Positions 1,291-19,984 of a DNA stretch of 64,000 nucleotides are shown piece by piece. Location: assembly GCA_964579335.1 (NCBI GenBank), contig CAZOFS010000001.1, forward strand, positions 11,196-75,195, written 5' to 3'. The stretch is from an uncultured Bdellovibrionales bacterium (GTDB taxonomy: Bacteria > Patescibacteriota > Minisyncoccia > Moranbacterales > UBA1568). The position numbers and the translations under genes are program-made. The notes under the pieces were generated by a model. The model searched no databases and had not been told where the DNA came from. It was given only the letters and a program-made list of their open reading frames with translations. Positions within the stretch are counted from its first letter, which is position 1, and the number at the start of each line of letters is the position of its first letter.

Positions 1291-1331
1291 CAGGGTTTCT
1301 TGAGAAAGAATTTATTTTTGAATATTCTTTT

Positions 1332-2747: not shown

Positions 2748-2791
2748 CTTCTCTTGTGGTATACTGAGGGAAATTACTTTAAGTTATACGT

Positions 2792-3139: not shown

Positions 3140-3164
3140 TTCCTAAATATAAATATACCGATTT

Positions 3165-3194
3165 TTAAAAAACAGGGGATAGCCCCTGTTTTTC
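3165..3194. terminator. Bidirectional rho-independent terminator between convergent genes
   Basis: AAAAAACAGGGGatagCCCCTGTTTTTC: an 8-bp GC-rich stem with a 4-nt loop, flanked by an A-run 5' and a T-run 3'. Confidence 0.65.
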
Positions 3195-3211
3195 TTGTGT
3201 CTACCGAGAAG

Positions 3212-3901: not shown

Positions 3902-3905
3902 AGGA

Positions 3906-5393: not shown

Positions 5394-5448
5394 ATCATTA
5401 GTGTATCACGTGAAAGTTGAGTGGTATTGTCTTCCTGTTACGACCACA

Positions 5449-5463
5449 GTATACTATAAAAAA
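5449..5463 (+). promoter_or_regulatory. GTATACTATAAAAAA promoter-like element (-10 TATACT) upstream of the epimerase/dehydratase operon
   Basis: The same GTATACTATA core recurs twice at 22272-22296. The -10-like hexamer lies in an intergenic, AT-rich region. Confidence 0.35.
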
Positions 5464-5553
5464 TGGCTCTAATAAAGGATTTCTTGGGTGAGGTAAGTGG
5501 AAAAAGGGAGCTCATTAATACGGATTCGTATGAAAGAGAAAAGAGGAATAATA

Positions 5554-6408: not shown

Positions 6409-6417
6409 GATACGGCT

Positions 6418-7824
6418 ATGGAAGTAAAGAATATTCTTATCATCGGAGCGGGAAGAGCGGGGAGGCTTTTGGCAAAGGACATTGCCATAAACCATTTGGA
6501 ATGTCGGGTGGTTGGTTTTGTTGATGACCAGGGGGATAAAGGTAAACAATCTGTTTTAGGGAGTATTGAGGATATTCCCAAATTGCTCGACTTGTACCAA
6601 GTGGATGAAATGGTTATTGCTATCCCCTCAGCGGACGGGGCGCTGATACGTCGGATTTTGCTTACCAATGTCCTCAACCGTATCCCTTTCAAAATCGTGC
6701 CACGCGACCAGCGGATCATTCGTGAGAGTGATGTGCGCTATAGCGAGGTGAAGGCTATCGAACCAGAGGATTTTCTTGGTCGCCCTTTTGTTCGCCATCA
6801 TGTCGATCAGCTCTCAAGCTTTTATAAAGGAAAGGTAGTGTTTGTGACGGGCGGAGCGGGTTCAATTGGTTCAGAAATTGTGCGCCAACTCCTCGATCTT
6901 AAGGTCAAGAAGGTAGTAGTCTACGATAATTCAGAATATTTGGTCTTTCTCCTTGAGCAGCAGCTCAAGGAACGAGGACTCCGGGAGCGATGCGAGCTTA
7001 TCGTGGGAGGAATCCTCCATGATCGTAAGCTCAGAACTCTGTTTGTTCGAATCAAACCGGATATCGTCTTCCATGCAGCTGCCTACAAACACGTACATCT
7101 CATGCAGGACAATATCGATGAGGCTATTTATAACAATGTAATTGGCACCAAACGGGTGGTAGACGTAGCGGTCGAACACAAAGTGCCGTTGATGACTTTT
7201 ATCTCAACGGATAAGGTAGTGAACCCCACAAGCATCATGGGGGCGACGAAGAAGCTGTGCGAGTACTACATCCAGCATCTCAAGAAGGGTAAGACCAGGT
7301 TTAATATCGTTCGATTTGGCAATGTGATTAATTCTCGGGGTTCGGCTTTGCCGCTCTTTGAACGGCAGATGGAACTGCACAAGTACATTACGGTAACTCA
7401 CAAGAAGATGCAGCGCTTCTTCATGTCGATCCGTGAAGCGGCCCAGCTGGTGATTGAAAGTACCGCCGAGGGAAAGCCCAATATGATCCATATTCTTAAT
7501 ATGGGGGAGCTCATCAATATCTATGAAGTGGCGAAGTGCTTGATTCGTTCCAAGAACCTTATTCCTGAAAAAGACATCGAGATCCGGATTATGGGCCTTC
7601 GCAAGGGCGAAAAAATGATTGAAGAGCTCTATACGGAAAGAGAGAAAGGAAAAATGACCAAAAAAAAATCAGGACGGATGTTCTTGCTCCGTAGTGAGGA
7701 GGTTTGCCCCGTAGATATTGACGTGGCGCTGGCTGAATTTGAAGAACTTGTCAAAACCAACCAGGACCAAGCGCTGCTACAAAAGAAATTGCGAGGCATC
7801 TTCCCGTCGCTCAAGAAACACTAA
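6418..7824 (+). CDS. CapD/PglF/WbpM-family nucleoside-diphosphate-sugar 4,6-dehydratase (soluble form; Polysacc_synt_2)
   Basis: VFVTGGAGSIGSEIVRQLL, FHAAAYKHVHLMQDN, ISTDKVVNPTSIMGATKKLCE and FNIVRFGNVINSRGSALPLF are hallmarks of the CapD-like family. N-terminal CoA-binding-like domain without TM helices. Confidence 0.8.
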   Translation: MEVKNILIIGAGRAGRLLAKDIAINHLECRVVGFVDDQGDKGKQSVLGSIEDIPKLLDLYQVDEMVIAIPSADGALIRRILLTNVLNRIPFKIVPRDQRIIRESDVRYSEVKAIEPEDFLGRPFVRHHVDQLSSFYKGKVVFVTGGAGSIGSEIVRQLLDLKVKKVVVYDNSEYLVFLLEQQLKERGLRERCELIVGGILHDRKLRTLFVRIKPDIVFHAAAYKHVHLMQDNIDEAIYNNVIGTKRVVDVAVEHKVPLMTFISTDKVVNPTSIMGATKKLCEYYIQHLKKGKTRFNIVRFGNVINSRGSALPLFERQMELHKYITVTHKKMQRFFMSIREAAQLVIESTAEGKPNMIHILNMGELINIYEVAKCLIRSKNLIPEKDIEIRIMGLRKGEKMIEELYTEREKGKMTKKKSGRMFLLRSEEVCPVDIDVALAEFEELVKTNQDQALLQKKLRGIFPSLKKH

Positions 7825-7848
7825 AAAAGACTTTAACAAGTTCTCAAT

Positions 7849-8754
7849 TTAATATTTCTCTTTGAAAAAGACCCCTGCAGCTGCTCCGAGGAGGGAGACG
7901 TCGTCCCCGAGTTTGGTTATTTGAATATCTGGGAGAGGGAGATAGTCGTCGGTATGACGGAGGAGAGGTGGGAGGAGTAGATCTTGATTGTGGACGAAAA
8001 CGCTGCCGCCGAAAATGATTCGTTCCGGATCATAGGCCACGATAGCATCCGAAAGGCCACGGCCGTTGATGCGGCCTAGTTCTTCCATAAAGACTACGGC
8101 ATGAAGATTTCCTTCCCGGGCTGCGGCAAAAATGTCTCTGGCATGACGATGGGTGCACTCAATGCTTTGTCGTTTGCAAAAGTTCTTAAAGGTCGAAAGG
8201 AGAAAGGTTCCGGAAGCGCAGCTATTCCAAAAATAAGGTTCATCGAAAACAAAAAAACGGCCAATTTCACCAGCATTGCCATTGCGACCGATGATAAGGT
8301 GATTGTTCGCGATGACTCCGCCGCCAATGCCGGTAGAAATAGTGATATAGACAAGGTTGGCTACGTCGTGGCCACTGCCGAAAAACTTTTCTCCAAGCAC
8401 CCCGGCGTGAGTATCTTTAAAGAGAAAAACAGGACAATGAAATGCTTCCTCGAGGGGAGCGACAAGAGGCACGACGCCGAGTGGGATATTGGGACAATGA
8501 TCGATACATCCTTGGGCGAGATCGAGCGGGCCGGCGCTACTTATGCTTATGGCAGCAATATTTCCTTCGGGTTGGATGGTGTGAATGAGCCGGGTAATTT
8601 CCCGTGTAATAACAAAGCTGTCATTTCCAAATTTCGGGGTGTTGGTAGTTTGTTTGGTGGTGACGGTGCCGTCTCGCTTTACCCTTGCTACCCGCAAATT
8701 GGTGCCGCCAATATCGACACAAATGACCTCGTTGAATACTTTTTTTTGACCCAT
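7849..8754 (-). CDS. ROK family sugar kinase / glucokinase
   Basis: N-terminal ICVDIGGTNLRVARV ATPase motif with ROK-type glycine-rich segments (ISTGIGGGVIANN). Confidence 0.7.
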   Translation of the reverse strand: MGQKKVFNEVICVDIGGTNLRVARVKRDGTVTTKQTTNTPKFGNDSFVITREITRLIHTIQPEGNIAAISISSAGPLDLAQGCIDHCPNIPLGVVPLVAPLEEAFHCPVFLFKDTHAGVLGEKFFGSGHDVANLVYITISTGIGGGVIANNHLIIGRNGNAGEIGRFFVFDEPYFWNSCASGTFLLSTFKNFCKRQSIECTHRHARDIFAAAREGNLHAVVFMEELGRINGRGLSDAIVAYDPERIIFGGSVFVHNQDLLLPPLLRHTDDYLPLPDIQITKLGDDVSLLGAAAGVFFKEKY

Positions 8755-8819
8755 AGACTTTTAATTTTTCCAAGTATAGCATGACTCAGCCTATGATTAG
8801 AGGCGTAACTTTTATAAGG

Positions 8820-8852
8820 GAAGAAAAAACCGCTGGGCGCTACCATGCGGTT
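8820..8852 (-). terminator. Rho-independent terminator (minus strand) downstream of the NUDIX-like gene
   Basis: On the minus strand: AACCGCatggtagcgcccaGCGGTT followed by TTTTTTCTTCC. Confidence 0.45.
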
Positions 8853-8944
8853 GGAAGGTGATTTTTATGTCACCACGGAATATGGCGTCTGTATCAGAGA
8901 GCGTCTGGAGGTCATGGATGGCCGAAACATCACTCGCCTTGGTT

Positions 8945-9709
8945 CTAGCGATGAATTTCGAGGACATACCGGCCGGGTCCACGGAAGAGGATCTGAGGGG
9001 TTGGATTCTGGAATGCCTGCAGACAGTCAAAGGTCATTTCCCAGTAGAGATGATGGGGATTTTGACCTTCCTCAGCGATGAGGTCCCCCAGGGTGATCCA
9101 GCGGGCACCCTCGGTTGACTTCAGGTATCCACCTTGACCAAGCTCACACTGGTCCGAGACAATGGCCACAAAGAGTGTTGCCTGGAAAGGGGTTTGCTCG
9201 GCCTGAATCTCGGAGACGTTGAGTATCAATTCGGAGTCGGTCATCTCCACAGTGCTTTGGTAGAGCCAAGGACCGATAATACCTGCAAACTGCAGGTCGA
9301 TTTCCAAGGCACTCCAGCCTAACGTTTCCTGAAGCGTCCGCTGCATGGCATGAATCGGACTCGGGTCGGAGGGCTTGGTATAACCACCCCACTTTGACTG
9401 GAGCTTGCCAAGGCAGTCAGGTGCGCCAGAAATGCGTTTGGCAACGAGGACTTCTGTCGATAGAAGATCGCAAGGGTCCATTGAACGCTGGCGCATCACC
9501 ACGGCCTCGGCTGTGCAGTAGGTGAGGGCGGAATAGCCTGGTTTCCAGCCACGCGCCGCCTCGATCTCTCGTTGGGCTTCCAAGGTGAAACCTTCGAACA
9601 TGATGAGGCTCACTTTCTCTAGGGAGTTGAACAAAAAGAACGCGACTACAGTATGAATAAAAATGTAATAAATGTCAAGGGTATTCATCTGAAAATTTAG
9701 AGGTGACAA
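8945..9709 (-). CDS. NUDIX-like hydrolase with a degenerate Nudix box (start uncertain; alternative start at 9601)
   Basis: WGGYTKPSDPSPIHAMQRTLQETLGW fits the G-x5-E-x7-REUxEExGU spacing but carries D, QR and QE substitutions. Local GC is higher than the flanks. Confidence 0.4.
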   Translation of the reverse strand: MSPLNFQMNTLDIYYIFIHTVVAFFLFNSLEKVSLIMFEGFTLEAQREIEAARGWKPGYSALTYCTAEAVVMRQRSMDPCDLLSTEVLVAKRISGAPDCLGKLQSKWGGYTKPSDPSPIHAMQRTLQETLGWSALEIDLQFAGIIGPWLYQSTVEMTDSELILNVSEIQAEQTPFQATLFVAIVSDQCELGQGGYLKSTEGARWITLGDLIAEEGQNPHHLYWEMTFDCLQAFQNPTPQILFRGPGRYVLEIHR

Positions 9710-9777
9710 AGGGTGAGGGGTGTGATAAATTGGAGGAGCTTATAGGGGGAACATAACTGGAGGATTGAAAAGAAATT

Positions 9778-10596
9778 ATGATTGATAAGGAAACAATTGT
9801 CTGTATTTCACTCGCGGAAAAACCAGGCAACTTGGGAGCGACCATCTTTAATACGGCATTCCAAGAACTGGGCATGAATTATATTTACAAGCCGTTTTTG
9901 GTGCGGAGTGAAGATTTGCAAAATGCCATTTTGGGAGTTCGGGCACTTGGTATTCGTGGCTGTGGCGTCTCGATGCCGCACAAAGTAGTTGTGATGCAGT
10001 ACCTTGATGAGGTTGATTCAGTGGCCAAAGAAATTGGTGCCGTAAATACCATTGTGAATCGCGGCGGAAAATTGACTGGATACAATACGGACTTTGAAGG
10101 TGTGCGAGTCATTACTCGAGATGATTATCGAGTTAAAGGAAAGAAAGTGCTTTTGGTGGGGGCAGGGGGTGCAGCCCGAGCTATTATTTGCGCTCTCAAA
10201 GAAAACCAAGTGGGTGAAATTGCTATTACTAATCGAAATGATGAACGAGCTCGGCAATTGGCAGAACAGTTTCATCTACGCTTTGTCCCTTGGAATGAAT
10301 GTGCTCGAGAAGAGGCCGAGTTCCTTATTAATGCCACTCCGGTCGGTATGAATCAGGAGCAGGCTTGTGTTTTCTCGGACGCAATGATCCAAAAGGCCGA
10401 GGCGGTTCTTGATGTAGTAGTGAGTTCTACGGATACGCTTCTTATCTCAAAGGCCAAACAGTATGGCAAAGTAGCGCTTCCCGGTATCCGCATGTCAGTC
10501 ATTCAGGGCATGGCTCAATTCAAGCTCTATACTACACCGGACGTGTCGGAGAAGATCATAAAGAAGGGGATAGCTACTTTCTTTGAAAATAATTAA
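9778..10596 (+). CDS. aroE: Shikimate/quinate 5-dehydrogenase family protein (AroE-like)
   Basis: Family motifs GVSMPHK and NTDFEGV, plus the NAD(P) site LLVGAGGAARAI. Only 14 nt upstream of the next gene. Confidence 0.75.
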   Translation: MIDKETIVCISLAEKPGNLGATIFNTAFQELGMNYIYKPFLVRSEDLQNAILGVRALGIRGCGVSMPHKVVVMQYLDEVDSVAKEIGAVNTIVNRGGKLTGYNTDFEGVRVITRDDYRVKGKKVLLVGAGGAARAIICALKENQVGEIAITNRNDERARQLAEQFHLRFVPWNECAREEAEFLINATPVGMNQEQACVFSDAMIQKAEAVLDVVVSSTDTLLISKAKQYGKVALPGIRMSVIQGMAQFKLYTTPDVSEKIIKKGIATFFENN

Positions 10597-10610
10597 TTCT
10601 GGATGGTCGT

Positions 10611-12197
10611 ATGAAATACAAGGTCTGTATCTTGGCAGCTGGAGCGGGGACACGTATGGGGGAATCGTCCAATCATATCAATAAGGCGGTCTTGCCGGTT
10701 AATATGAAGGCTGTTATCTCACATATTGTCGAGAAATTTCCCACAGATGTGGAAATAGTGGTAGCGGTCGGGCATAAAAAAGAAACCGTTATTGATTACT
10801 TGACGCTGGCTTATCCCGAGCGCCGTTTTACCTTCGTCGAGGTAGACCAGATCGTTGGGCCCGGGACAGGTCCTGGCTACTCGCTCCTCCAGTGTAAGTC
10901 GCATCTCCAGTGTCCATTTGTTTTTTCGGCAGCTGATACGATCGTGCTTGAGCAGGTTCCAGTGCCTGACCATAACTGGTTCGGTATTTCACCAGTGAAG
11001 GAAACAGAGCGTTACTGTACAGTCAAAATCAAGAACAATCTCATCTATCAGTTGGATGACAAGACCAAGAATGACAACAAATTTGCCTTTATCGGTCTGG
11101 CGGGCGTGAAGCATTACGAAGCCTTTTTTGATTCATTGGAGAAGAACAAGGTAGTAGCCAATGGTGAGATCCAGGTATCCAATGGCTTCAAAGCTTTGAT
11201 TGAGCAGAAATTAGTACCGATTGGTTTTACCTGGTTTGATACCGGATCTGAATTGAGTTATGCCGAAACGAATAAGAATCTCAGCGGCGCCAAAACCAAA
11301 TTTGACTTTAGCAAGGGGGACGAATATTTCTATTTCGTCAATGACCGGGTGATCAAGTTTTTTTCTGATGTTACTATCGCCAAAAACCGTTATGAACGGG
11401 CAGTGAATAGCCTCGCTGGCCTCTGTCCCAAGATTGAAGGTTATCGTGGTAATTTTTACTCCTACAAGAAAGTCCCAGGCCAGACACTCTACACTGTCCT
11501 CAATGCCAAGACGGTAAAGGATTTTCTTGGCTGGACCAAGATGAATTTGTGGAAAAAGATGGAGATTACGCCGGAGGAGGAAAGCCAGTTCAAGCAGGCT
11601 TGCCGTGATTTCTACCATGCCAAAACTATGAAACGGTTGGACATGTTCTTCAAGAAGTCCGAAATCGAAGACGGAGAGAATATTATTAATGGGGTGACAG
11701 TGTCTCCTTTGAATGATCTTTTGGCTAAGATTGACTGGGATTATCTTATCAATGGTACGCCATCAAACTTCCATGGTGACCTCCAATTTGATAATATTAT
11801 TGTAACCCGCGATCCGGTGAGTAATCTGGAAAAGTTTGTCTTAATTGACTGGCGGCAGGATTTTGGTGGATCAACCAAAATCGGAGATTTGTATTACGAC
11901 CTTGCCAAACTTTACGGTGGGACAACTCTTTCGTATCAGCTCATCAAAGAGGGAATGTTTACCTTTGATATGAGTGGTTCGAGCGTTTACTACAATTTCT
12001 ACCTGACCAATGAACTTGTGGAGGCCAAGAACGAATATGAGACGTTTATCCTGAAAAATGGTTATGACCTTAAGAAGGTAAAGCTTCTCACAGCGCTTAT
12101 TTTCCTGAATATGTCGCCCATGCATAATCATCCTTTTGATCTCATGTTGTATTACCTTGGTAAGAGTACGCTCAACAGGCTATTGAATAACGCATAA
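10611..12197 (+). CDS. Bifunctional protein: N-terminal sugar-phosphate nucleotidyltransferase (LicC/GlmU-N-like) fused to a C-terminal APH/choline-kinase-family kinase
   Basis: N-terminus ILAAGAGTRMG (G-x-G-T-R nucleotidyltransferase signature). The C-terminus has the Brenner motif HGDLQFDNIIV and the IDWRQDFGG...GDLYYDLAKL motif of APH/ChoK/anomeric sugar kinases. Confidence 0.7.
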   Translation: MKYKVCILAAGAGTRMGESSNHINKAVLPVNMKAVISHIVEKFPTDVEIVVAVGHKKETVIDYLTLAYPERRFTFVEVDQIVGPGTGPGYSLLQCKSHLQCPFVFSAADTIVLEQVPVPDHNWFGISPVKETERYCTVKIKNNLIYQLDDKTKNDNKFAFIGLAGVKHYEAFFDSLEKNKVVANGEIQVSNGFKALIEQKLVPIGFTWFDTGSELSYAETNKNLSGAKTKFDFSKGDEYFYFVNDRVIKFFSDVTIAKNRYERAVNSLAGLCPKIEGYRGNFYSYKKVPGQTLYTVLNAKTVKDFLGWTKMNLWKKMEITPEEESQFKQACRDFYHAKTMKRLDMFFKKSEIEDGENIINGVTVSPLNDLLAKIDWDYLINGTPSNFHGDLQFDNIIVTRDPVSNLEKFVLIDWRQDFGGSTKIGDLYYDLAKLYGGTTLSYQLIKEGMFTFDMSGSSVYYNFYLTNELVEAKNEYETFILKNGYDLKKVKLLTALIFLNMSPMHNHPFDLMLYYLGKSTLNRLLNNA

Positions 12198-12204
12198 AAG
12201 AAGT

Positions 12205-13224
12205 ATGGAAGAAACACTCGTTCATGGGAAAATTCGCGCTGACCTCGGGATTGGCCCCATGAGTACGGAGGCGATCGAAGCGACGTTTCGTTACTCACAC
12301 TATCACCGGAAACAGCTCATGCTGATTCCATCGAAGAACCAAATTGATGCCAAGGGTGGTTATGTGAATGGCTGGACCACAAAACAGTTTATGGAACATG
12401 TCCGAGAGCTGCGGAATACCTATGAGCATAGTGATGTCCTTATTTGTCGGGACCATTGTGGACCTGGTTTCAATGGTAATCATGACCTCGCCGATACCCA
12501 CAATACGATTCGAGACGATATAGAGAATGGATTTGACCTAATCCATATAGACTTTTGCCATTTTAAGGGAACCAAGGATGAGGCGCTGGAGGAATCCAAA
12601 AAAGCAGTAGAGCTTGCACTTGGTCTGAATCCCAATATCATGCTCGAGATTGGCACGGACGAAAATATGGGTTCCAATTATAACTTGCCTAACTTAGGAG
12701 AAATTGAACGAGAAATTGATTATTTCAAAGCAATCTGCAATCCCGAGTTTTACGTGGTTCAGACCGGAAGTTTGGTCAAGGAAATTAATCAAGTTGGGAA
12801 CTTTAATAAGGAATTTACCGAACAAATTGCTGAAGTTTTGCACCGAAAAGGGATCAAGCTCAAGGAGCACAATGACGACTATCTCAATAAGAGTGAAATT
12901 GAAATGAGAAAGGGGATTATTGATGCGAGAAATATTGCTCCGCAGTTGGGTGTGGTCCAAACGCAGCTTGTTCTGACGAAATGTCTTACTTATGGAGTAG
13001 ATTTCCAGGATTTTATCAATGATGTCTACCAGAGCGAGAAGTGGAAGAAATGGATGCATACCAATACCCCAGAGAACAAACTTCTTTGTGCCGTCATCGC
13101 TGGTCACTACTGTTTCAATTCAGACAGCTACAAGAAAATTATTGACCAGCTTTCACAATGCGAAGATATTCATGAGTCCATCACTAATTCATTAATGGAA
13201 ATTATAGAACATTATGAACAATGA
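12205..13224 (+). CDS. GatZ/KbaZ-family TIM-barrel protein (tagatose-bisphosphate aldolase subunit / tagatose-6-phosphate 4-epimerase family)
   Basis: Blockwise similarity to GatZ: [12 protein letters not shown] vs [38 protein letters not shown] vs [30 protein letters not shown] vs [18 protein letters not shown] vs KIHLDASM. Confidence 0.6.
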   Translation: [339 protein letters not shown]

Positions 13225-13597
13225 GTACCCAAAAACAGTGACTAAACCATGGGGACGAGAGATTTGGCTGGAGCTCAATGACCGCTATTGCTACAAGCGC
13301 TTGTACATTAACGCTGGCCATCGAACGAGTTTCCAGTACCACGAAAAGAAGCGCGAAACTAATTACATCATTGCTGGCGAAGCAGAGATATGGCTTGAGA
13401 ATGAACAAGGGGTCGTGGAAAAGAAACGTATGAAAGCTGATGATTTCTTTAATGTCATTCCGCCACGGAAGCATCGAGTAATTGCGATTACGGACCTTGT
13501 TTTGCAAGAGGTTTCTACTCCAGAGGTAGATGATGTGGTTCGTCTTGAAGATGATGCCCATCGCGGCGATGGTCGGATTGAATCAGAGCATCAGTAG
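13214..13597 (+). CDS. Cupin-domain protein (phosphomannose-isomerase type II-like cupin)
   Basis: 127 aa with KPWGREIWLE and HRTSFQYHEKKRETNYIIAGEAEIWLE (two-His cupin motifs). Overlaps the upstream gene by 11 nt. Confidence 0.6.
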   Translation: MNNEYPKTVTKPWGREIWLELNDRYCYKRLYINAGHRTSFQYHEKKRETNYIIAGEAEIWLENEQGVVEKKRMKADDFFNVIPPRKHRVIAITDLVLQEVSTPEVDDVVRLEDDAHRGDGRIESEHQ

Positions 13598-13606
13598 TAA
13601 TAAGGT

Positions 13607-14137
13607 ATGGCTAAGTCGGTGATCAAAAACCTCATCTTGGATGTGGACGGCGTTTTTACCGACGGCAAGTATTACTATACAACCGAAGGAAAAGTAATGA
13701 AGAAATTTGGTCCAGAGGATAATGATGCATTAGATCTCCTGAAGGGGAGGCTTTATATCCATGCGGTTTCGGGTGATAAACGCGGTTTTGCCATTACCAA
13801 GAAACGAATAGTGGAGGATATGGGTTTGCCGCTTGATTTAGTGAGTACTTTTGACCGGGCAGCATGGATCAAGGAGCGGTTTAATCCTCAAGAGACTATC
13901 TACATGGGCGATGGGATATTTGATCCGTTGGTATTCCGGGAGGTGTCGTACGGTATTGCTCCGGCCAATGCTTTTTACAAGACTAAGGAAGCAGCTAACT
14001 TTGTGACAAATGCCCGTGGCAGTGAAGGAGCGGTAGCCGAAGCATGCCTCCACATCTTAGAGAAGTTTTTTGAGCCCTTTGACCTTTTTACTCATGATTT
14101 CAGCAAGGGAGTAGGTGTATGGAATAAAAAGAAATAA
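13607..14137 (+). CDS. HAD-IIIA phosphatase of the KdsC family (3-deoxy-sugar-acid phosphate phosphatase-like)
   Basis: LILDVDGVFTDGKYYYTTEGKVMKKFGPEDNDALDLL matches the KdsC signature LILDVDGVLTDGKLYY...G...K.F...DG. Confidence 0.7.
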   Translation: MAKSVIKNLILDVDGVFTDGKYYYTTEGKVMKKFGPEDNDALDLLKGRLYIHAVSGDKRGFAITKKRIVEDMGLPLDLVSTFDRAAWIKERFNPQETIYMGDGIFDPLVFREVSYGIAPANAFYKTKEAANFVTNARGSEGAVAEACLHILEKFFEPFDLFTHDFSKGVGVWNKKK

Positions 14138-15268
14138 ATGGAATACATTATCCGAGATAAAAGTTTATTGACGGGAAAAAAGAACCTTGAAACGTTGCAT
14201 GTTTTCAAGGATTTTCCCGTCTTCATGGGCTGTACTGATCAAGCGGAGAGTAAAGACCTAAAAGCAGATATGAGCTTTGCTATCTGTCCTGAAACGGGGA
14301 TGATCCAGCTCGATAAGTTGCTTCCTTTAGAGCTGGTTTATCTAGCTCAGCATAATGATGGAGTGGGAAAAATATGGCAGGAACATTACCAGGCCTTTGC
14401 ATCATTTCTTAATCGTTTTTTCCCTAAGAAGGTTCTTGAAATCGGTGGTTCACATGATGAGATATTTAAATCGGCTTTTAAAACAAATAAGAGTCTTGAT
14501 TGGACAGTGGTTGAACCGCACCCTCTTTTTGAGGGATACGGCAATATCAGGGTCATTCCTCAGTGGTTTGATGAAAATTTTACTTCTGAAGAAGTATATG
14601 ACACAGTAGTTCATTCCCATGTACTAGAACATACGTATGATCCTCCTACTTTCCTATCTCATATTGGAAAATATTTAGAACCGGGGAAAAAACATATCTT
14701 TACTTTTCCAAATCTCATCGAGTTTCTGAAAAAAAAATATACTAATGGCTTAAATTTTGAGCACACTTGCCTCTTAGCCGAACCATTTGTAGATTACCTA
14801 CTAGCAAAAAATGGTTTTCGTGTTCTAGAAAAGGAATATTTTCATGATCATAGCATTTTTTATGCTACTGAAAGAGTAACACAACCTACCGCAGAGAATA
14901 CGCCTCCTTATTGTTATACGGAGTATAGATCTCTTTTCATGGATTTTATTAATTACCATGAAACACTTGTACAATCTCTTAATGAAAAGATTAAGAGTCA
15001 TTCTGGTGAGATATATTTATTTGGGGCACATATTTTTTCCCAATACTTGATTGCTTTTGGGCTAGATATAAGTCGTATTCGTATCGTACTTGATAATTCT
15101 GACCTTAAAAATAAGCAAAGACTCTACGGAACTCATCTATTAGTAGAAAAGCCGGAGCAAATTCGTAATGAAATAAATCCTGCTGTGATTGTTAAGATTG
15201 CTAATTATCGTGATGAAGTAGTGGAGCAACTGATGAAGATTAATCCTCGGGTTACCATTTTCGAATAA
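14138..15268 (+). CDS. Class I SAM-dependent methyltransferase of the NDP-sugar C-methyltransferase family (TylCIII-like; Zn-finger, MT and C-terminal domains)
   Basis: N-terminal putative Zn-binding domain FPVFMGC...FAICPETGMIQL (the C..CGLVQL signature), a central SAM fold (VLEIGGSHDE), and a C-terminal domain of about 120 aa typical of PF08484. Confidence 0.6.
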   Translation: MEYIIRDKSLLTGKKNLETLHVFKDFPVFMGCTDQAESKDLKADMSFAICPETGMIQLDKLLPLELVYLAQHNDGVGKIWQEHYQAFASFLNRFFPKKVLEIGGSHDEIFKSAFKTNKSLDWTVVEPHPLFEGYGNIRVIPQWFDENFTSEEVYDTVVHSHVLEHTYDPPTFLSHIGKYLEPGKKHIFTFPNLIEFLKKKYTNGLNFEHTCLLAEPFVDYLLAKNGFRVLEKEYFHDHSIFYATERVTQPTAENTPPYCYTEYRSLFMDFINYHETLVQSLNEKIKSHSGEIYLFGAHIFSQYLIAFGLDISRIRIVLDNSDLKNKQRLYGTHLLVEKPEQIRNEINPAVIVKIANYRDEVVEQLMKINPRVTIFE

Positions 15269-15270
15269 CT

Positions 15271-16545
15271 ATGAGACTTGTCTTAGTAAATCCTCATTAC
15301 TATATTTACGGAAAAACGGTAATAAATATTTTATTACGTCGGAAACACTTCATGAAATATGATTATTTCATTGATTATTATTTAAAAGATAAAAGTAAAC
15401 AAACAGCAATCTATATTGATGGGACTAAGACTTCCTTGGCAGCTATAAAAGTTCGATTTCTATTTTTTCCAAAGTTTTTTTCTTATTTAGAGCTTTTAGT
15501 ATGGATGATTAGTAATGGCCTTAATCCTTTTAAAGTAAAAGTTTATTTTGAGATCGGACAGCTAGATCCACAAAAAGATGTAATGATTGATTTTGTTCGT
15601 TCTCTGAAACTGTCGGAACTTAAGTATACTGGCTATACAAAATTTTCAGGACTAGTTTTATTTTTTTGCACCCATTACTTTCTTCGTATTAGGGAAGTAG
15701 TTGAGTATCTGAAGCAGGTTCCTCATTACCTTCTTATAGCAGAGCATAATCTTGCCCAAGAGGCTTTCTTTCATAATTTTTTCCCCAATGTAGCAGAAGT
15801 GTATCAGCTACCTTATGCCTTTGGTGAGCGTTTCAACCAAAAAAAGAATTTTGAAGAGCGCACAAATAAATGCTTAGCCCTTGGGTCTGTTGCACCTATT
15901 GAAAGGAATAATAAAGAGTTCTTTGATTTTTTCCATATCGAGGTTCTTCAGCCAATGCGTCAGTTGCTTCTCGACAAAGCGTCACAATATACACCGGAAA
16001 TTGATACGGTAATAAGACGTTTTGAAAATTCTTCTTTTCTCCAGACTGGTGTGCCTGATGAGAATTGGGTAAATCGTATGATACGACGTTGGGCACCTCC
16101 TTTTATTATGAAGATAGTTTTTTCTTATCCTCATAATAAATATTATCAATTTGACATAGTGCAAAAATATAATCAGTATCGAATGTTTATTTCTGGAGAG
16201 GAAATTGTTGGGTTACCCCCAATTAATGCTTTTGAAGGTATGGCTTGTGGGGCAGCGTATATTGGTATAGATCATCCGATGTATACTCGAATTGGTCTTA
16301 TCCCGGGGGTTAATTATGTTGGATACAAAGAAGGAGATTTAGATGATCTTATCAGTAAGGTACGTTATTACCAGACTCATCCAGTGGAGTTAAAAAAGAT
16401 CGCTGAGGCAGGAAAAGTATTCGTGAGAGATCATTTTAATAGAAAGAAGATTGCAGAGACCTTTTGGAAAGATATAGAAACAATCTCAAAAGAGTTCTCT
16501 GAATCACAATCTTTGAACATAGTTTGCTCTTTTCGCAAGCCTTAA
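15271..16545 (+). CDS. Glycosyltransferase-like protein with a C-terminal GT-B (GT1/GT4) domain
   Basis: C-terminal EGMACGAAYIGIDHPMYTRIG...VGY resembles the E-x7-E/EAMA-G-PVI donor-binding region of GT4 enzymes. The N-terminal half is unrecognised. Confidence 0.45.
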   Translation: MRLVLVNPHYYIYGKTVINILLRRKHFMKYDYFIDYYLKDKSKQTAIYIDGTKTSLAAIKVRFLFFPKFFSYLELLVWMISNGLNPFKVKVYFEIGQLDPQKDVMIDFVRSLKLSELKYTGYTKFSGLVLFFCTHYFLRIREVVEYLKQVPHYLLIAEHNLAQEAFFHNFFPNVAEVYQLPYAFGERFNQKKNFEERTNKCLALGSVAPIERNNKEFFDFFHIEVLQPMRQLLLDKASQYTPEIDTVIRRFENSSFLQTGVPDENWVNRMIRRWAPPFIMKIVFSYPHNKYYQFDIVQKYNQYRMFISGEEIVGLPPINAFEGMACGAAYIGIDHPMYTRIGLIPGVNYVGYKEGDLDDLISKVRYYQTHPVELKKIAEAGKVFVRDHFNRKKIAETFWKDIETISKEFSESQSLNIVCSFRKP

Positions 16546-17216
16546 TATTTTGCTGCAACGAGTATGATCTCATTGTAGAGTGCCGGGGGTAGAAATTTAA
16601 CAATGAAGCTAGTCTGTGGTAAGACGAGAATCTTTTTAGTTTCTTGTCGTTTAAGAGTTGCTTGCTCGAGCATAAAATCCATTAAGTGAAGTGTAAAAAA
16701 GGTATGATGTTTATAGTATCCAGATCGACGATACATATGTTCTTGATAGGAAATACCAAATATCATGCGGATTATATTATTTAATCCTACATCGCTAGGA
16801 ATACTTACTATAAGAACACCTCCCTTTTTTAGAACACGGTTAATTTCTTTAAGTAAACCTATGGGGTCAAAAACATGCTCTATTATATCTCCGGCCCATA
16901 CAACATCGAATCGCTCGTTATCTTCAGGAATACCCTCATCAAGATTGCATTGTTTTGCTTCAATGCCATTTTTGAGAGCTTTACTTACTGCCTCACAAGA
17001 AAAGTCCAAACCTTTTACAATGTACCCAAGCTCTTGAATTTTCTTTGTAACTAGTCCGCTCCCGCATCCAATATCGAGTATATGCACTTCTTGGGGCGGT
17101 TTGTTTAATGTCTGAGTGTATTTACTCAGCATTTCAAACATTGTTTTTTCTTCAAGTTCGATCCGGCAATGGTCGGAAATTTGGTAGCGTTTATCTTCTG
17201 CTTGATCTGGTCGCAT
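16542..17216 (-). CDS. Class I SAM-dependent methyltransferase (paralog of 19985-20659)
   Basis: Motif I ILDIGCGSGLVTKKI, motif post-I LDFS, and DVVWAGDIIEHV. About 60% aa identity to the 19985-20659 product. Confidence 0.75.
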   Translation of the reverse strand: MRPDQAEDKRYQISDHCRIELEEKTMFEMLSKYTQTLNKPPQEVHILDIGCGSGLVTKKIQELGYIVKGLDFSCEAVSKALKNGIEAKQCNLDEGIPEDNERFDVVWAGDIIEHVFDPIGLLKEINRVLKKGGVLIVSIPSDVGLNNIIRMIFGISYQEHMYRRSGYYKHHTFFTLHLMDFMLEQATLKRQETKKILVLPQTSFIVKFLPPALYNEIILVAAKY

Positions 17217-17349
17217 AGCATTTTTCTCTCTGGAAAGAGTTCAATATATGTGTAAATTACCTATATTATAGCAAAAAATACTCAAAATATCAGCTTTAAA
17301 AAAGATGAATTTGGCTGTATGTGCTTGTCAGAAAGGGACAAATATAAGC

Positions 17350-17358
17350 TGTTATAAT
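17350..17358 (+). promoter_or_regulatory. Extended -10 promoter element TGtTATAAT for the flippase gene
   Basis: Perfect TATAAT at 17353-17358 preceded by TG at 17350-17351, about 70 nt upstream of the ATG at 17430, in a 213-bp AT-rich divergent intergenic region. Confidence 0.4.
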
Positions 17359-17429
17359 AGATTAATAGATGTCCATAAAAACGCTTGCCCCCATCTCTCT
17401 AAGAAAGTGCACCAGGATAAGATCTGTTT

Positions 17430-18686
17430 ATGTTAGGAAAAAAGGTACGTTATTTAGATTGGTTAGGAAAAAAAATAGGCTTAGATTTGGCACGTCATTT
17501 TAATAATGGTCAGTGGATTTTTCTAAAATTTGGAGTGATAGCAGTAGGGGGGTGGTTAATATCACTTCTTTTTGCCAGACTTGGAACCAAAGAAGTTCTT
17601 GGTCAATACCAATACGTACTTTCATGTATTACAATCGTTTCTCTTTTATCCCTACCAGGTTTGAATACTGCAGCCCTTGAAGCTGTGGCGCATGGTCGAG
17701 AGGCGGGGGTTATTAAAGCAGTACGATGGAGCTTTTTTTTGAGTCTAATGGCATTGGTGGCACTGGTGGGATTGGGGTTTTATAGCATTTTTTTTCGAAA
17801 CCAATTTTTGGTGGGGGAAACGCTTATTTTAGCAGGGCTTCTAGCACCTTTTTATTATGCGTTTAATACCTGGAATATCTATTATGATGGGAAATCTCTT
17901 TTCAAAGAAAGCTCTCTTCGTACCGTACTTCTCTATATCTCTCTTCATCTTTCACTGGCTGTAGGTCTTTTATTAGAATTTAATGTATTAGGACTTGTGC
18001 TTACCTATCTTTTTGTTCATATTTTTCTTTTTGGCTATTTCTTTTTCGAGCTCTTAAAAAAAATAAAGGACCGAACAAACGATTATATTGATTTTAAATT
18101 TGGTGTTAATTCTTCGATTCAGCGTTTTGTTTTCGGTTTATCAAACAATGTCCCACCTCTCGCTATCTCTGCCTTGTTTGGTCTTGAGGCGGTTGCTATT
18201 TATTATATCGGTTATTTTATTGTCAATGCTGGCTCATCTCTTATGGGTATGCTCGGGTATCTCTATATTCCCGCCCTCTTCCGTGGGGTGAAAATTGCTT
18301 ACAAAAAAGTAATGCTGCAAAACCTGGTTGTAGGCATTATTTTTTGGGTCGCCTTTCTTATTTTTATCAAATTTCTTTTTATCCCTATGTATGGAGTGGG
18401 ATATTTAGAAAGTCAGAGATTAGCCTTCTTCTTCTCTATCTTGATGATTTTTGTACCACTTAAGATTTTTATGATGAATTTCTTTATGACCAGAAAGAAA
18501 AATTGGACAATCATTTCAATAATTGGTCTTGCTAATATAGTTTCGCTAGGAATTTTGTACTTACTAAAAAACCACGGTTTTTCGATTAGTATGGTAACTT
18601 ACATTTATGCCCTTGAGCTAATGACCATCTTACCTTTAGCGTATATATATCTTCAAGAAAATAGAAAATCTCTATACTCTAAATAA
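17430..18686 (+). CDS. Polysaccharide flippase (Wzx/MOP superfamily-like) membrane protein
   Basis: 418 aa with about 12 predicted TM helices and a size and topology typical of oligosaccharide-unit flippases. No soluble domain. Confidence 0.55.
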   Translation: MLGKKVRYLDWLGKKIGLDLARHFNNGQWIFLKFGVIAVGGWLISLLFARLGTKEVLGQYQYVLSCITIVSLLSLPGLNTAALEAVAHGREAGVIKAVRWSFFLSLMALVALVGLGFYSIFFRNQFLVGETLILAGLLAPFYYAFNTWNIYYDGKSLFKESSLRTVLLYISLHLSLAVGLLLEFNVLGLVLTYLFVHIFLFGYFFFELLKKIKDRTNDYIDFKFGVNSSIQRFVFGLSNNVPPLAISALFGLEAVAIYYIGYFIVNAGSSLMGMLGYLYIPALFRGVKIAYKKVMLQNLVVGIIFWVAFLIFIKFLFIPMYGVGYLESQRLAFFFSILMIFVPLKIFMMNFFMTRKKNWTIISIIGLANIVSLGILYLLKNHGFSISMVTYIYALELMTILPLAYIYLQENRKSLYSK

Positions 18687-18769
18687 GTTGAAAAGTAGCA
18701 TATAAAGCCATCTCCTTAGGTATTCTTTTCCAAGATTTTCTTGATTGCTAAGAGTGTTTGTAGTCAAAA

Positions 18770-19978: not shown

Positions 19979-19984
19979 AAGGGG

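What the first reader, a model, noticed from the sequence alone, without database searches (positions are those of the whole stretch)
9778..16545. Tight seven-gene operon suggesting an undescribed nucleotide-sugar pathway
Seven co-oriented genes with gaps of -11 to +14 nt encode:
- an AroE-family dehydrogenase;
- a fusion of a G-x-G-T-R nucleotidyltransferase with an APH/choline-kinase-type kinase. Both the Brenner motif HGDLQFDN and IDW...GDxxxD are present, as in the anomeric sugar kinases NahK/AmgK and in LicA;
- a GatZ/KbaZ-family TIM barrel, a family that includes tagatose-6-phosphate 4-epimerases;
- a PMI-type cupin;
- a KdsC-family HAD phosphatase;
- a TylCIII-like C-methyltransferase with the C..CGLVQL Zn motif;
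- a GT-B protein.
No known pathway uses this combination. One interpretation is that a sugar phosphate is epimerised or isomerised (GatZ-like, cupin, AroE-like redox), dephosphorylated (KdsC-like), re-phosphorylated at C1 and nucleotidylated (the kinase-NT fusion), then C- or O-methylated and transferred. This would be a salvage-style activation grafted onto a de novo route. There is no KdsA/NeuB-type synthase, so it is not a standard Kdo or nonulosonate cluster.
Basis: partly seen in the sequence, partly recalled or inferred. Interest (0 to 1): 0.8.

Follow-up and report, generated by a model that had tools for sequence, protein, structure and literature searches.

The report
Widespread uncharacterised nucleotide-sugar synthesis cassette
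The seven genes are real, but only five form a conserved, uncharacterised unit that most likely builds and activates an unknown rare sugar for cell-surface glycans, and this unit recurs in many bacteria, in ultra-small CPR bacteria and DPANN archaea, and on virus-classified contigs.

Summary
In detail: seven co-oriented ORFs at 9778-16545, gaps -11 to +14 nt, with the stated domains. One detail fails: the methyltransferase lacks the four-Cys zinc motif.

The unit is not seven genes. It is a five-function core: a reductase, a nucleotidyltransferase-kinase (NT-kinase) fusion, a GatZ-like barrel, a PMI-type cupin and a phosphatase. The methyltransferase and glycosyltransferase belong to a separate low-GC, variable block.

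In 84 genome loci and 80 IMG/VR contigs the fusion, the GatZ-like protein and the cupin are almost always adjacent. The AroE-like reductase (47 loci) and a FabG-like SDR (24 loci) never co-occur. The KdsC-type phosphatase is replaced by a small GmhB/PNKP-like HAD in the viral set. Natural fusions exist (cupin-NT-kinase, NT-kinase-GatZ, GatZ-cupin-NT-kinase).

Bacterial and DPANN copies of the fusion are 60-70% identical. Catalytic residues are conserved in all five proteins.

Best reading: a ketose phosphate is reshaped, its phosphate is relocated to C1 by kinase plus phosphatase, and the product is nucleotidylated. This is the logic of the NDP-heptose pathway built from unrelated folds. The sugar, the nucleotide and the reductase step are unknown. 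I found no published description in the literature I could search.

The parts
9778..10596 (+). AroE/SdhL-like NAD(P)-dependent reductase (272 aa). This is the core 'reductase' slot.
   Evidence: Hits Pfam PF08501 and PF01488. TIGR00507 scores 199.6 against a cut-off of 200.2, and NF009202 scores 247 against 306. The best solved relative is HI0607 SdhL, 1npy, at 1.8e-51; 5-ketofructose reductase 7cok is also a relative. The catalytic S65-x-P-x-K69, N90, D105 and Q243/Q247 are at least 95% conserved in 42 homologues. It is present in 47 of 84 genome loci and is mutually exclusive with a FabG-like SDR found in 24 loci. It is present in 75 of 80 IMG/VR loci.
10611..12197 (+). Fusion of a sugar-1-phosphate-type nucleotidyltransferase (about residues 1-225) with an APH/ChoK-fold kinase (about residues 230-528). 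This is the signature gene of the cassette.
12205..13224 (+). Short GatZ/KbaZ-like class-II-aldolase-fold TIM barrel (339 aa). It is inferred to be a metal-dependent ketose-phosphate C4-epimerase or aldolase.
   Evidence: PF08013 scores 34.5 bits, while the TIGR02810 equivalog scores only 29.6 against a cut-off of 568.8. The AF2 model has pLDDT 87. Foldseek's best matches are GatZ 2fiq and 3txv at TM 0.75-0.80, followed by class II FBP and TBP aldolases. D83-H84 align with the GatZ base and zinc ligand D87-H88 (PMC11907403). R82-D83-H84, H114, D116, E148, Q186 and K220-H222-N223-D225 are at least 95% conserved in 70 homologues. It occurs fused to the NT-kinase in P0243 and P0346.
13214..13597 (+). 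Small PMI-type (type II phosphomannose-isomerase-like) cupin (127 aa). It is inferred to be an aldose-ketose isomerase acting on a sugar phosphate.
   Evidence: PF01050 scores 31.4 bits against a cut-off of 23.6, and it matches the TIGR01479 C-terminal region 356-465. The metal ligands Q41, H43, E48 and H87, and the basic residues K28, K46, R88, R110 and R117, are at least 95% conserved in 70 homologues. It is fused N-terminally to the NT-kinase in L059, in many IMG/VR loci and in P0255, P0258, P0262 and P0271.
13607..14137 (+). KdsC-family (HAD-IIIA, capless) sugar-phosphate phosphatase (176 aa). This is the core 'phosphatase' slot.
   Evidence: TIGR01670 scores 62.4 against a cut-off of 107. 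PDB KdsC/YrbI relatives score 1e-16 to 1e-9. DxD (D12, D14) and G101-D102-G103-x-x-D106 are conserved in 53 homologues. It is present in 57 of 84 genome loci. It is replaced by a 120-aa PNKP/GmhB-like HAD in 67 of 80 IMG/VR loci. An IMPase-family gene occupies its usual position in L038, and IMPase-family genes occur in 11 loci.
14138..15268 (+). Accessory SAM methyltransferase (376 aa) with a C-methyltransferase-type C-terminal domain. It is variable and not part of the core.
   Evidence: Hits PF13489 and PF08484 (26.1 bits against 23.5), with no PF08421 hit. The zinc motif is degenerate. A homologue is adjacent to the cassette in only 13 of 84 genome loci and 7 of 80 viral loci. GC is 36% against 42-46% for the core. 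It is 76% identical to the closest relative, against 87-95% for the core genes. It has strong PHROG hits.
15271..16545 (+). Accessory GT-B-type glycosyltransferase (424 aa, Glyco_trans_1_2). It is the probable transferase for the cassette's product and is variable.
   Evidence: Hits PF13524 at 34.9 bits and PF05686 weakly. A homologue occurs in 13 of 84 loci. The same Pfam family follows the cassette in L021. It also follows the NT-kinase in Enterococcus phage 9183, where the match is weak. GC is 34.5%. It is 62% identical to the closest relative.

Best explanation
The region holds a conserved, horizontally mobile cassette of five functions that makes a nucleotide-activated unusual sugar for a surface polysaccharide.

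**Shown**
- The five functions are always linked: reductase, NT-kinase fusion, GatZ-like barrel, PMI-type cupin and phosphatase.
- They are sometimes fused to one another.
- All five proteins keep their catalytic residues.
- In this window and in the neighbourhoods I inspected (L001-L004, L021, L027, L076, L085), the cassette sits among glycosyltransferases, flippases and sugar-tailoring genes.

**Inferred mechanism**
1. The GatZ-like metalloenzyme epimerises a ketose phosphate such as fructose-6-P at C4, or reassembles it by a retro-aldol/aldol reaction.
2. The PMI-like cupin isomerises the ketose phosphate to an aldose phosphate.
3. The AroE-like reductase, or its SDR substitute, sets one stereocentre on a non-nucleotide intermediate. 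Its position in the route is unknown.
4. The APH-fold kinase phosphorylates the anomeric C1-OH, and the HAD phosphatase removes the distal phosphate. The order may be kinase, then bisphosphate, then phosphatase, as between HldE and GmhB in the heptose pathway.
5. The fused RmlA-like NT domain converts the sugar-1-phosphate to an NDP-sugar.

In this window a low-GC, serotype-type block then methylates the sugar (14138-15268) and transfers it (15271-16545). That block continues with a second methyltransferase, a Wzx-like flippase and a GT4 glycosyltransferase.
For: **Linkage**
- In 84 genome loci, the NT-kinase is present in 79, the GatZ-like protein in 74, the cupin in 74 and the KdsC-type HAD in 57.
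- The AroE-like reductase (47 loci) and the FabG-like SDR (24 loci) never co-occur.
- In 80 IMG/VR contigs the order is cupin-NT-kinase, AroE-like, GatZ-like, small HAD.

**Gene fusions**
- cupin-NT-kinase, NT-kinase-GatZ, and GatZ-cupin-NT-kinase.

**Folds**
- The NT domain is closest to the sugar-1-P nucleotidyltransferases RmlA, GalU and MurU. It carries GxGTR and WFDTG.
- The kinase has the APH/ChoK fold with intact HGDLxxDN and DW motifs. The same fold is used by the anomeric kinases maltokinase, MtnK and NahK.
- The GatZ-like model matches GatZ at TM 0.75-0.80 and keeps the D-H pair.
- GatZ and KbaZ have been shown to be fructose-6-P to tagatose-6-P 4-epimerases (PMC11907403).
- The cupin passes the Pfam PMI threshold. 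It keeps the Q-H-E-H ligands and five basic residues, which is consistent with a phosphorylated substrate.

**Context**
- The window's neighbours are a WbaP-like transferase, a PglF-like dehydratase, Wzx, GT4 and methyltransferases.
- Neighbours in other loci are similar.

**A minimal module elsewhere**
- Enterococcus phage 9183 carries small HAD + NT-kinase + Glyco_trans_1_2 GT. Its NT-kinase is only 23% identical.
- This shows that kinase, phosphatase and NT can travel together as a unit.
Against: - There is no biochemical evidence for any member of the cassette.
- The sugar and the nucleotide are unknown.
- The reductase has no assigned step in the scheme.
- Known APH-fold anomeric kinases act on free sugars, which favours phosphatase first. 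GatZ, PMI and KdsC precedents act on phosphosugars. The order is therefore unresolved.
- The GatZ-like protein lacks the GatZ hallmark residues: E44 aligns to I41, and C20 appears replaced (read from sequence, not aligned). Its reaction may not be a C4 epimerisation.
- Seventeen loci carry a second stand-alone NT paralogue whose role is unexplained.
- L030 has the cassette without a GatZ-like gene.
Confidence: 0.6

Rival explanations
1. **CDP-alditol or CDP-alcohol route, LicC/LicA-like.** The sugar phosphate is epimerised and dephosphorylated. It is then reduced to a polyol by the AroE-like or SDR enzyme. The kinase phosphorylates a primary hydroxyl, and the NT makes a CDP-polyol. The polyol phosphate is then transferred as in teichoic-acid-type polymers.
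For: - An NT-then-kinase domain order is known from LicCA-type fusions (my own knowledge, not tested here).
- A small-molecule reductase is a near-universal part of the cassette, and it finds a natural role in this scheme.
- Inositol-1-P cytidylyltransferases are also structural neighbours.
Against: - The NT domain's top matches and its WFDTG and DDK motifs are those of RmlA-type sugar-1-P enzymes.
- The PMI-type cupin would be redundant.
- The recurrent adjacent transferase is a GT-B-type glycosyltransferase.
- No LicD, TagF or CDP-alcohol phosphotransferase family appeared among the recurrent neighbour clusters I annotated. That survey was not exhaustive.
- The Choline_kinase Pfam model is hit weakly by only 2 of 15 relatives.
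Confidence: 0.17
2. **De novo aldol assembly on free sugars.**
1. The GatZ-like protein acts as a true DHAP-dependent class II aldolase. It condenses DHAP with a small aldehyde or 2-oxoaldehyde, for example lactaldehyde or methylglyoxal.
2. The reductase makes the aldehyde, or reduces the extra keto group as 5-ketofructose reductase does.
3. The phosphatase removes the C1 phosphate of the ketose.
4. The cupin isomerises the free ketose to an aldose.
5. The kinase and NT then activate it.

The product could be an NDP-6-deoxyhexose or another rare sugar.
For: - The fold is that of the class II aldolases, and the metal and base residues are conserved.
- An AroE-family enzyme acting on a free keto-sugar, 5-ketofructose reductase 7cok, is among the solved relatives.
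- Every enzyme is used exactly once, and the scheme explains why both a phosphatase and a kinase are needed.
- APH-fold anomeric kinases act on free sugars (established knowledge).
- An IMPase/FBPase-family phosphatase occurs in 11 loci. In L038 it occupies the usual HAD position.
Against: - The nearest relatives are GatZ proteins, whose only demonstrated catalysis is C4 epimerisation of a hexulose 6-phosphate.
- The cupin passes the PMI (phosphosugar isomerase) model. It carries five conserved basic residues, which suggests a phosphorylated substrate.
- KdsC-family enzymes remove distal phosphates rather than C1 phosphates (established knowledge).
Confidence: 0.15
3. **No dedicated pathway.** The genes are housekeeping or catabolic enzymes (AroE for aromatic amino acids, GatZ for galactitol or tagatose catabolism, KdsC for Kdo) that happen to lie together in this genome.
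For: The AroE-like protein scores 199.6 bits on TIGR00507, against a cut-off of 200.2.
Against: - The same set is linked in about 160 loci, including genomes labelled CPR and DPANN and virus-classified contigs.
- GatZ-like scores 29.6 against 568.8, and KdsC-like 62 against 107, so both are far below their equivalog cut-offs.
- Fusion proteins join GatZ-like, cupin and NT-kinase.
- The AroE-like gene is replaced by an SDR in 24 loci.
- No transporter or PTS genes are adjacent.
Confidence: 0.03

Closest known systems
NDP-heptose pathways: GmhA, HldE (kinase-NT fusion), GmhB and HldD for ADP-heptose; GmhA, HddA, GmhB and HddC for GDP-heptose
   Same: The set of roles is the same. These are a ketose-phosphate isomerase, an anomeric kinase fused to or paired with an NT, a HAD-IIIA phosphatase acting between the kinase and the NT, and an NAD(P) oxidoreductase-fold enzyme. 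The virus-borne version of the cassette uses a small GmhB/PNKP-like HAD. A cyanophage, Sf-CH8, pairs the cupin and this HAD with an HldE-C-type NT.
   Different: Every fold differs. The isomerase is a cupin rather than the SIS-fold GmhA. The kinase is APH-type rather than ribokinase or GHMP. The NT is RmlA-like rather than the cytidylyltransferase-like HldE-C. The phosphatase here is KdsC-type. The redox enzyme is AroE-like or a classical SDR rather than the extended SDR HldD. There is an additional GatZ-like enzyme. The HddC model is hit only at 8e-5, 22 bits against a cut-off of 300.
GDP-mannose synthesis by the bifunctional type II PMI/GMP enzyme (ManC, AlgA, XanB) with phosphomannomutase
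   Same: An NT works together with a PMI-type cupin. The cupin matches the C-terminal PMI domain of TIGR01479. In relatives it is fused to the NT-kinase.
   Different: No mutase is encoded among the cassette genes. A kinase plus a phosphatase would do the 6-to-1 phosphate transfer instead. The domain order is reversed (cupin N-terminal). A GatZ-like enzyme and a reductase are added, so the sugar is unlikely to be mannose.
Anomeric salvage pairs AmgK-MurU and NahK-GlmU, and the LicA-LicC (LicCA) CDP-choline pair
   Same: An APH/ChoK-fold kinase feeds an NT of the RmlA/LicC fold.
   Different: Those systems salvage a ready-made substrate. Here the kinase-NT is embedded in a de novo route with three or four upstream enzymes. 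There is no family-level sequence match: MurU scores 8.5e-4 and 18.8 bits against a cut-off of 370, and the Choline_kinase Pfam model is not hit by the window protein.
GatZ/KbaZ fructose-6-P to tagatose-6-P C4-epimerases, and the GatZ plus HAD phosphatase route to free tagatose (PMC11907403)
   Same: The fold and the D-H catalytic pair are shared. A HAD phosphatase is the partner enzyme.
   Different: This protein is 339 aa against 420 aa. Only the first ~110 residues align by sequence. The GatZ hallmark residue E44 is replaced, and C20 appears to be. The context is biosynthetic rather than catabolic.

Membership tests
NDP-heptose pathway (GmhA / HldE or HddA / GmhB / HddC) | SIS-fold sedoheptulose-7-P isomerase GmhA | tested here: not met
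   The only isomerase candidate is a 127-aa cupin that hits PF01050 and PF07883. No SIS-domain protein is present among the cassette genes.
NDP-heptose pathway (GmhA / HldE or HddA / GmhB / HddC) | Ribokinase-type (HldE-N) or GHMP-type (HddA) heptose-7-P kinase | tested here: not met
NDP-heptose pathway (GmhA / HldE or HddA / GmhB / HddC) | HAD-IIIA bisphosphate phosphatase acting between the kinase and the NT | tested here: inconclusive
   The window protein is a KdsC-type HAD-IIIA enzyme. Virus-borne cassettes carry a small PNKP/GmhB-like HAD. The substrate is not testable in silico.
NDP-heptose pathway (GmhA / HldE or HddA / GmhB / HddC) | Heptose-1-P nucleotidyltransferase (HddC or HldE-C) | tested here: not met
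GatZ/KbaZ (PF08013; TIGR02810) | Pfam family membership and GatZ fold | tested here: met
   PF08013 scores 34.5 bits against 26.7. Foldseek matches 2fiq and 3txv at TM 0.75-0.80.
GatZ/KbaZ (PF08013; TIGR02810) | Equivalog-level identity and the GatZ hallmark residues: D87-H88, plus H257, E171, E44, C20 and K279 | tested here: not met
   TIGR02810 scores 29.6 against 568.8. D83-H84 align with D87-H88, but E44 aligns with the invariant I41 (residues from PMC11907403). The other ligands could not be aligned by sequence.
KdsC (Kdo-8-P phosphatase) | Score above the TIGR01670 or NF007019 cut-offs, with KdsA and KdsB as partners | tested here: not met
   The scores are 62.4 against 106.95, and 55.2 against 208. 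No KdsA- or NeuB-type synthase was found among the genes annotated in this locus or among the recurrent neighbour clusters I annotated.
Shikimate dehydrogenase AroE | Score above the equivalog cut-off, with a shikimate-pathway context | tested here: not met
   TIGR00507 scores 199.6 against 200.2, which is borderline. NF001319 scores 239 against 252. The closest structure is the SdhL-type protein HI0607. The context is the cassette itself, including 75 of 80 virus-classified contigs, and the gene is replaced by an SDR in 24 loci. The catalytic K and D are conserved.
Type II phosphomannose isomerase domain (PF01050) | Pfam gathering score and Q-x-H / E / H metal ligands | tested here: met
   The score is 31.4 bits against 23.6. 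Q41, H43, E48 and H87 are at least 95% conserved. Substrate specificity is not testable here.
APH-fold anomeric sugar kinases (NahK, AmgK, MtnK, maltokinase) | APH fold with Brenner motif and DxD/DW Mg site | tested here: met
APH-fold anomeric sugar kinases (NahK, AmgK, MtnK, maltokinase) | Phosphorylation of the anomeric C1-OH | not testable with these tools
   This is inferred only from the fusion to an RmlA-like sugar-1-P NT. The kinase is equally distant from LicA, FN3K and the APH enzymes.
TylCIII-type NDP-hexose C-methyltransferase | N-terminal four-Cys zinc domain (PF08421) plus PF08484 | tested here: not met
   PF08484 scores 26.1 against 23.5, but PF08421 is not hit. The sequence shows a single Cys in 'FAICPETGMIQL' and no upstream CxxC.
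LicC/LicA CDP-choline system | Choline_kinase family (PF01633) kinase, with LicB and LicD as partners | tested here: not met
   The window protein does not hit PF01633. Only 2 of 15 relatives hit it, at 3e-3. No LicD-like neighbour appears among the recurrent clusters I annotated, though that survey was not exhaustive.

The most novel reading that the evidence does not exclude
The cassette encodes a previously unknown nucleotide-sugar pathway. It is a fold-for-fold analogue of the ADP/GDP-heptose route and proceeds through a sugar-1,omega-bisphosphate. It makes a rare hexose or heptose stereoisomer, for example a talo- or galacto-configured sugar derived from a 4-epimerised ketose phosphate. 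That sugar would decorate the surfaces of CPR bacteria, DPANN archaea and many marine bacteria. Viruses would carry the cassette as an auxiliary gene set, and in some phages it may serve to modify other targets such as DNA.
Probability: 0.35. Interest if true: 0.8.

Novelty: new variant of a known kind. Interest (0 to 1): 0.66.

Why it matters
**A missing branch of sugar metabolism.**
- Nucleotide-sugar pathways define what microbes display on their surface.
- This cassette has thousands of homologues and 459 representative kinase clusters at E<=1e-30.
- Its proteins are 60-70% identical between bacteria and DPANN archaea.
- It also occurs on many virus-classified contigs and in a few GenBank phage records.
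- None of its enzymes has a known substrate.

**What solving it would give.**
- The identity of a sugar likely to be common on the surfaces of the ultra-small, host-attached CPR and DPANN organisms.
- A new kinase-NT fusion enzyme useful for chemoenzymatic NDP-sugar synthesis.
- A biosynthetic function for the GatZ and SdhL families, whose physiological roles are poorly understood.

**A clean evolutionary example.** The reductase and phosphatase slots are each filled by unrelated families while the rest of the pathway stays fixed.

Tried and rejected
**Searches that found nothing useful**
- An exact-sequence lookup of the fusion protein found nothing.
- Seven literature searches found no description of the cassette. 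They combined the enzyme names, CPR/DPANN, SdhL/HI0607, heptose-pathway analogues and phage 'phosphoheptose isomerase' genes. Only the GatZ epimerase paper was useful.
- The promoter and terminator scan was uninformative, with counts at or below shuffled expectation.

**Neighbour families left unidentified**
- Three recurrent neighbour families, of 216, 275 and 389 aa, stayed unannotated.
- The 216-aa family lies just upstream of the NT-kinase in some loci that lack a HAD. I could not show that it is a phosphatase.

**Ideas considered and rejected**
- A Kdo or nonulosonate cluster: no synthase is present.
- A galactitol or tagatose catabolic operon: there is no PTS or transporter, and an NT is present.
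- A shikimate or cyclitol route: there is no DHQ synthase or dehydratase, an SDR substitutes for the AroE-like gene, and the cassette occurs on viral contigs.

**Not resolved**
- I could not decide the order of the kinase and phosphatase steps.
- I could not place the reductase.
- I could not verify that the IMG/VR contigs are true viruses.

Full report
**1. The observation**

The intergenic distances are 14, 7, -11, 9, 0 and 2 nt. Pfam and NCBIfam confirm the domain calls:
- an AroE-family dehydrogenase;
- a 528-aa protein with an N-terminal NTP-transferase domain and a weak C-terminal APH match;
- a protein passing the GatZ_KbaZ-like threshold, though only over residues 23-127;
- a 127-aa cupin passing the phosphomannose-isomerase C-terminal model;
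- a KdsC-subfamily HAD phosphatase below the subfamily cut-off;
- a methyltransferase with the C-methyltransferase C-terminal domain;
- a Glyco_trans_1_2 glycosyltransferase.

One detail is wrong. The methyltransferase has 'FAICPETGMIQL', with a single cysteine and no upstream CxxC. The zinc-domain model PF08421 is not hit. It therefore lacks the TylCIII-type zinc site.

**2. Context and source**

A bacterial class A RNase P RNA lies at 873-1291, so the window is bacterial. The closest relatives of the locus are MAGs labelled Bdellovibrionales, with the fusion protein 94% and 85% identical.

The surrounding genes form a polysaccharide locus:
- a WbaP/PglC-like initiating transferase;
- a PMT_2 glycosyltransferase;
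- an epimerase;
- a PglF/CapD-like dehydratase;
- a ROK protein;
- a second methyltransferase;
- a Wzx-like flippase;
- a GT4 glycosyltransferase.

**3. The unit is five functions, not seven genes**

I fetched 80 genome loci with the fusion protein, plus four from exact-protein look-ups. I then scored the seven window proteins against them and clustered all neighbouring ORFs within 6 kb.

| Component | Loci with it (of 84) |
|---|---|
| NT-kinase fusion | 79 |
| GatZ-like protein | 74 |
| Cupin | 74 |
| KdsC-type HAD | 57 |
| AroE-like protein | 47 |
| FabG-like classical SDR | 24 |
| Methyltransferase homologue | 13 |
| Glycosyltransferase homologue | 13 |

The AroE-like protein and the SDR never occur in the same locus. 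The SDR usually sits between the GatZ-like gene and the cupin. This is a clear case of one reductase step filled by two unrelated families.

In the window the split is visible in composition. The five core genes have 42-46% GC (GC3 44-53%). The methyltransferase, the glycosyltransferase and the next three genes have 34-37% GC (GC3 28-32%). The break falls at the HAD/methyltransferase junction. Against the nearest relative, the core proteins are 87-95% identical, the methyltransferase 76% and the glycosyltransferase 62%.

**4. Distribution**

The fusion protein has more than 3000 homologues at E<=0.001 among the candidates scored. The kinase domain alone has 459 representative clusters at E<=1e-30, and almost all of them are fusions of about 525 aa.

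Carriers include:
- many CPR lineages (Falkowbacteria, Buchananbacteria, Yanofskybacteria, Saccharibacteria, Kaiserbacteria);
- many DPANN lineages (Woesearchaeota, Pacearchaeota, Nanoarchaeota, Iainarchaeum);
- Bdellovibrionota, SAR86, Pelagibacteraceae, Halieaceae, Magnetococcales, Planctomycetota, Spartobacteria, Elusimicrobiales and others.

Several of the MAG contigs are long: 160-437 kb. Bacterial and archaeal copies of the fusion are 60-70% identical. The NT-kinase, GatZ and cupin block is even alignable at the DNA level, at about 64-66% over 2.5-3 kb. This points to repeated horizontal transfer of a strongly constrained module.

**5. Viruses**

A scan of IMG/VR returned 80 virus-classified contigs (12-300 kb) with full-length homologues at 32-42% identity. 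Of these, 73-75 carry the cupin, the AroE-like gene and the GatZ-like gene next to it. The cupin is often fused to the NT-kinase. Sixty-seven carry a 120-aa PNKP/GmhB-like HAD in place of the KdsC-type enzyme. The phosphatase slot is therefore also filled by different families.

In GenBank phage records:
- 'Marine virus AG-345-E15' has small HAD, cupin, NT-kinase and GatZ-like.
- Synechococcus phage Sf-CH8 has the small HAD and the cupin, beside an HldE-C-type nucleotidyltransferase and glycosyltransferases.
- Enterococcus phage 9183 has small HAD, an NT-kinase (23% identity) and a weak Glyco_trans_1_2 protein. These sit inside its nucleotide-metabolism and replication module.

I could not verify independently that the IMG/VR contigs are viral.

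**6. Fusions**

These natural fusions tie the GatZ-like protein, the cupin, the NT and the kinase to one pathway:
- L059 encodes a cupin-NT-kinase protein.
- P0255, P0258, P0262 and P0271 are cupin-NT-kinase.
- P0243 is NT-kinase-GatZ-like.
- P0346 (1390 aa) is GatZ-like-cupin-NT-kinase.

**7. The individual proteins**

*NT domain.* The AF2 model has pLDDT 85. The best matches are RmlA, GalU, MurU, ST0452 and GlmU, with LicC close behind. GxGTR, ADT, DDK and WFDTG are invariant.

*GatZ-like protein.* The model has pLDDT 87. It matches GatZ at TM 0.75-0.80, then class II aldolases. D83-H84 align with the proposed base and zinc ligand of GatZ (PMC11907403). Other GatZ hallmark residues differ.

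*Conservation across 42-70 diverse homologues.*

| Protein | Residues at least 95% conserved |
|---|---|
| GatZ-like | R82-D83-H84, H114, D116, E148, K220-H222-N223-D225 |
| Cupin | Q41, H43, E48, H87, plus five basic residues |
| HAD | D12, D14, GDGxxD |
| AroE-like | K69, N90, D105, Q243/Q247 |

All five proteins look catalytically competent.

**8. Mechanism**

*Shown:* the linkage, the fusions, the conserved catalytic residues and the glycan context.

*Inferred:*
1. The GatZ-like enzyme and the cupin reshape a ketose phosphate into a rare aldose phosphate.
2. A small-molecule reductase sets a stereocentre at an unknown point.
3. The kinase and the phosphatase together move the phosphate to C1.
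4. The fused NT makes the NDP-sugar.

The set of roles is that of the NDP-heptose pathways: an isomerase, a kinase-NT fusion, a HAD-IIIA phosphatase acting between the two fused activities, and an oxidoreductase-fold enzyme. Every fold is different, however, and a GatZ-like step is added.

Family precedents pull in two directions on the order of steps. GatZ, PMI and KdsC act on phosphosugars. Known APH-fold anomeric kinases act on free sugars. The net reaction is the same for both.

**9. Rivals**

- A CDP-alditol (LicCA-like) route gives the reductase a role. It makes the cupin redundant, and it does not fit the RmlA-like NT motifs or the adjacent GT-B transferases.
- A DHAP-aldolase route on free sugars uses each enzyme once. 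It fits the 5-ketofructose-reductase relative and the IMPase-family genes seen in 11 loci. It conflicts with the PMI and KdsC precedents.
- A housekeeping or catabolic reading is excluded by the synteny, the fusions and the scores far below equivalog cut-offs.

**10. Novelty**

I found no description of the cassette in the searchable literature. It is a new variant of a known kind of system, de novo nucleotide-sugar synthesis. The product is unknown, the kinase-NT fusion family is uncharacterised, and the distribution across domains and viruses is unusual.

Noticed in passing
window 873-1291 (+): Bacterial class A RNase P RNA (108.9 bits, full length). This shows that the window is bacterial.
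   Followed up: yes
window 8755-9695, ORF 8945-9709 (-): About 1 kb lies between the ROK gene and the cassette and is absent from the closest relative, L001. It holds a 254-aa TTG-start ORF with unusually high GC3 (0.61). There is no PDB sequence hit and no Pfam hit (E<=1e-4), and only one weak homologue (28% identity, in L010). By eye, the stretch 'GGYTKPSDPSPIHAMQRTLQETLG' resembles a degenerate Nudix box.
   Followed up: partly
window 14138-20000: There is a sharp compositional break at the HAD/methyltransferase junction. Five consecutive glycan genes have 34-37% GC (GC3 28-32%), against 44.8% for the whole window. This is the usual signature of an exchangeable, serotype-specific block.
   Followed up: yes
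window 7849-8754 (-): A ROK-family protein (sugar kinase or regulator) is divergently adjacent to the cassette. It is conserved there only in the nearest (Bdellovibrionales-labelled) relatives, about five loci. Its role in the pathway is unknown.
   Followed up: partly
L165 (Enterococcus phage 9183, NC_055907.1) 7645-10845: Small HAD (gp046, annotated 'phosphoheptose isomerase'), an NT-kinase fusion (gp047) and a weak Glyco_trans_1_2 protein (gp048). They sit between dUTPase and a thymidylate-synthase-like gene on one side and RNase H, thymidine kinase and DNA polymerase on the other. This placement raises the possibility of DNA or nucleotide glycosylation in this phage.
   Followed up: partly
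L085-L164 (IMG/VR contigs): Eighty virus-classified contigs carry a compact version of the cassette: cupin-NT-kinase fusion, a short (about 206 aa) AroE-like gene, GatZ-like and a 120-aa HAD. In L085 the flanking genes are PseB-like, PIG-L, formyltransferase and GT2. Whether the contigs are really viral was not verified.
   Followed up: partly
L014 14068-14778; L019 10001-10705; 17 loci in all: A second, stand-alone NT paralogue of about 236 aa (37-51% identical to the NT domains of fusion proteins) accompanies the cassette. In L019 it lies immediately upstream of the fusion gene. The reason for two NTs is unexplained.
   Followed up: partly
L012 5351-6910; L038 4108-5886; L039 16125-17057, and similar loci: Recurrent accessory genes lie next to the cassette: a B12-binding radical SAM enzyme (10 loci), a NodU/CmcH-type carbamoyltransferase (9), an IMPase-family phosphatase (11) and GDP-mannose 4,6-dehydratase (11). 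These suggest that the sugar is often C- or O-methylated or carbamoylated.
   Followed up: partly
P0346 (1390 aa, from the representative library): A single polypeptide joins GatZ-like, a long low-complexity linker, the cupin, the NT and the kinase. Its style suggests a eukaryotic or giant-virus origin. The source is unknown.
   Followed up: no
L030 (Komeilibacteria contig) 1108-6448: This locus has the cassette with AroE-like, a shorter NT-kinase (497 aa), the cupin, the HAD and methyltransferases, but no GatZ-like gene on the 7.7-kb contig. The GatZ-like step may be dispensable or encoded elsewhere.
   Followed up: no
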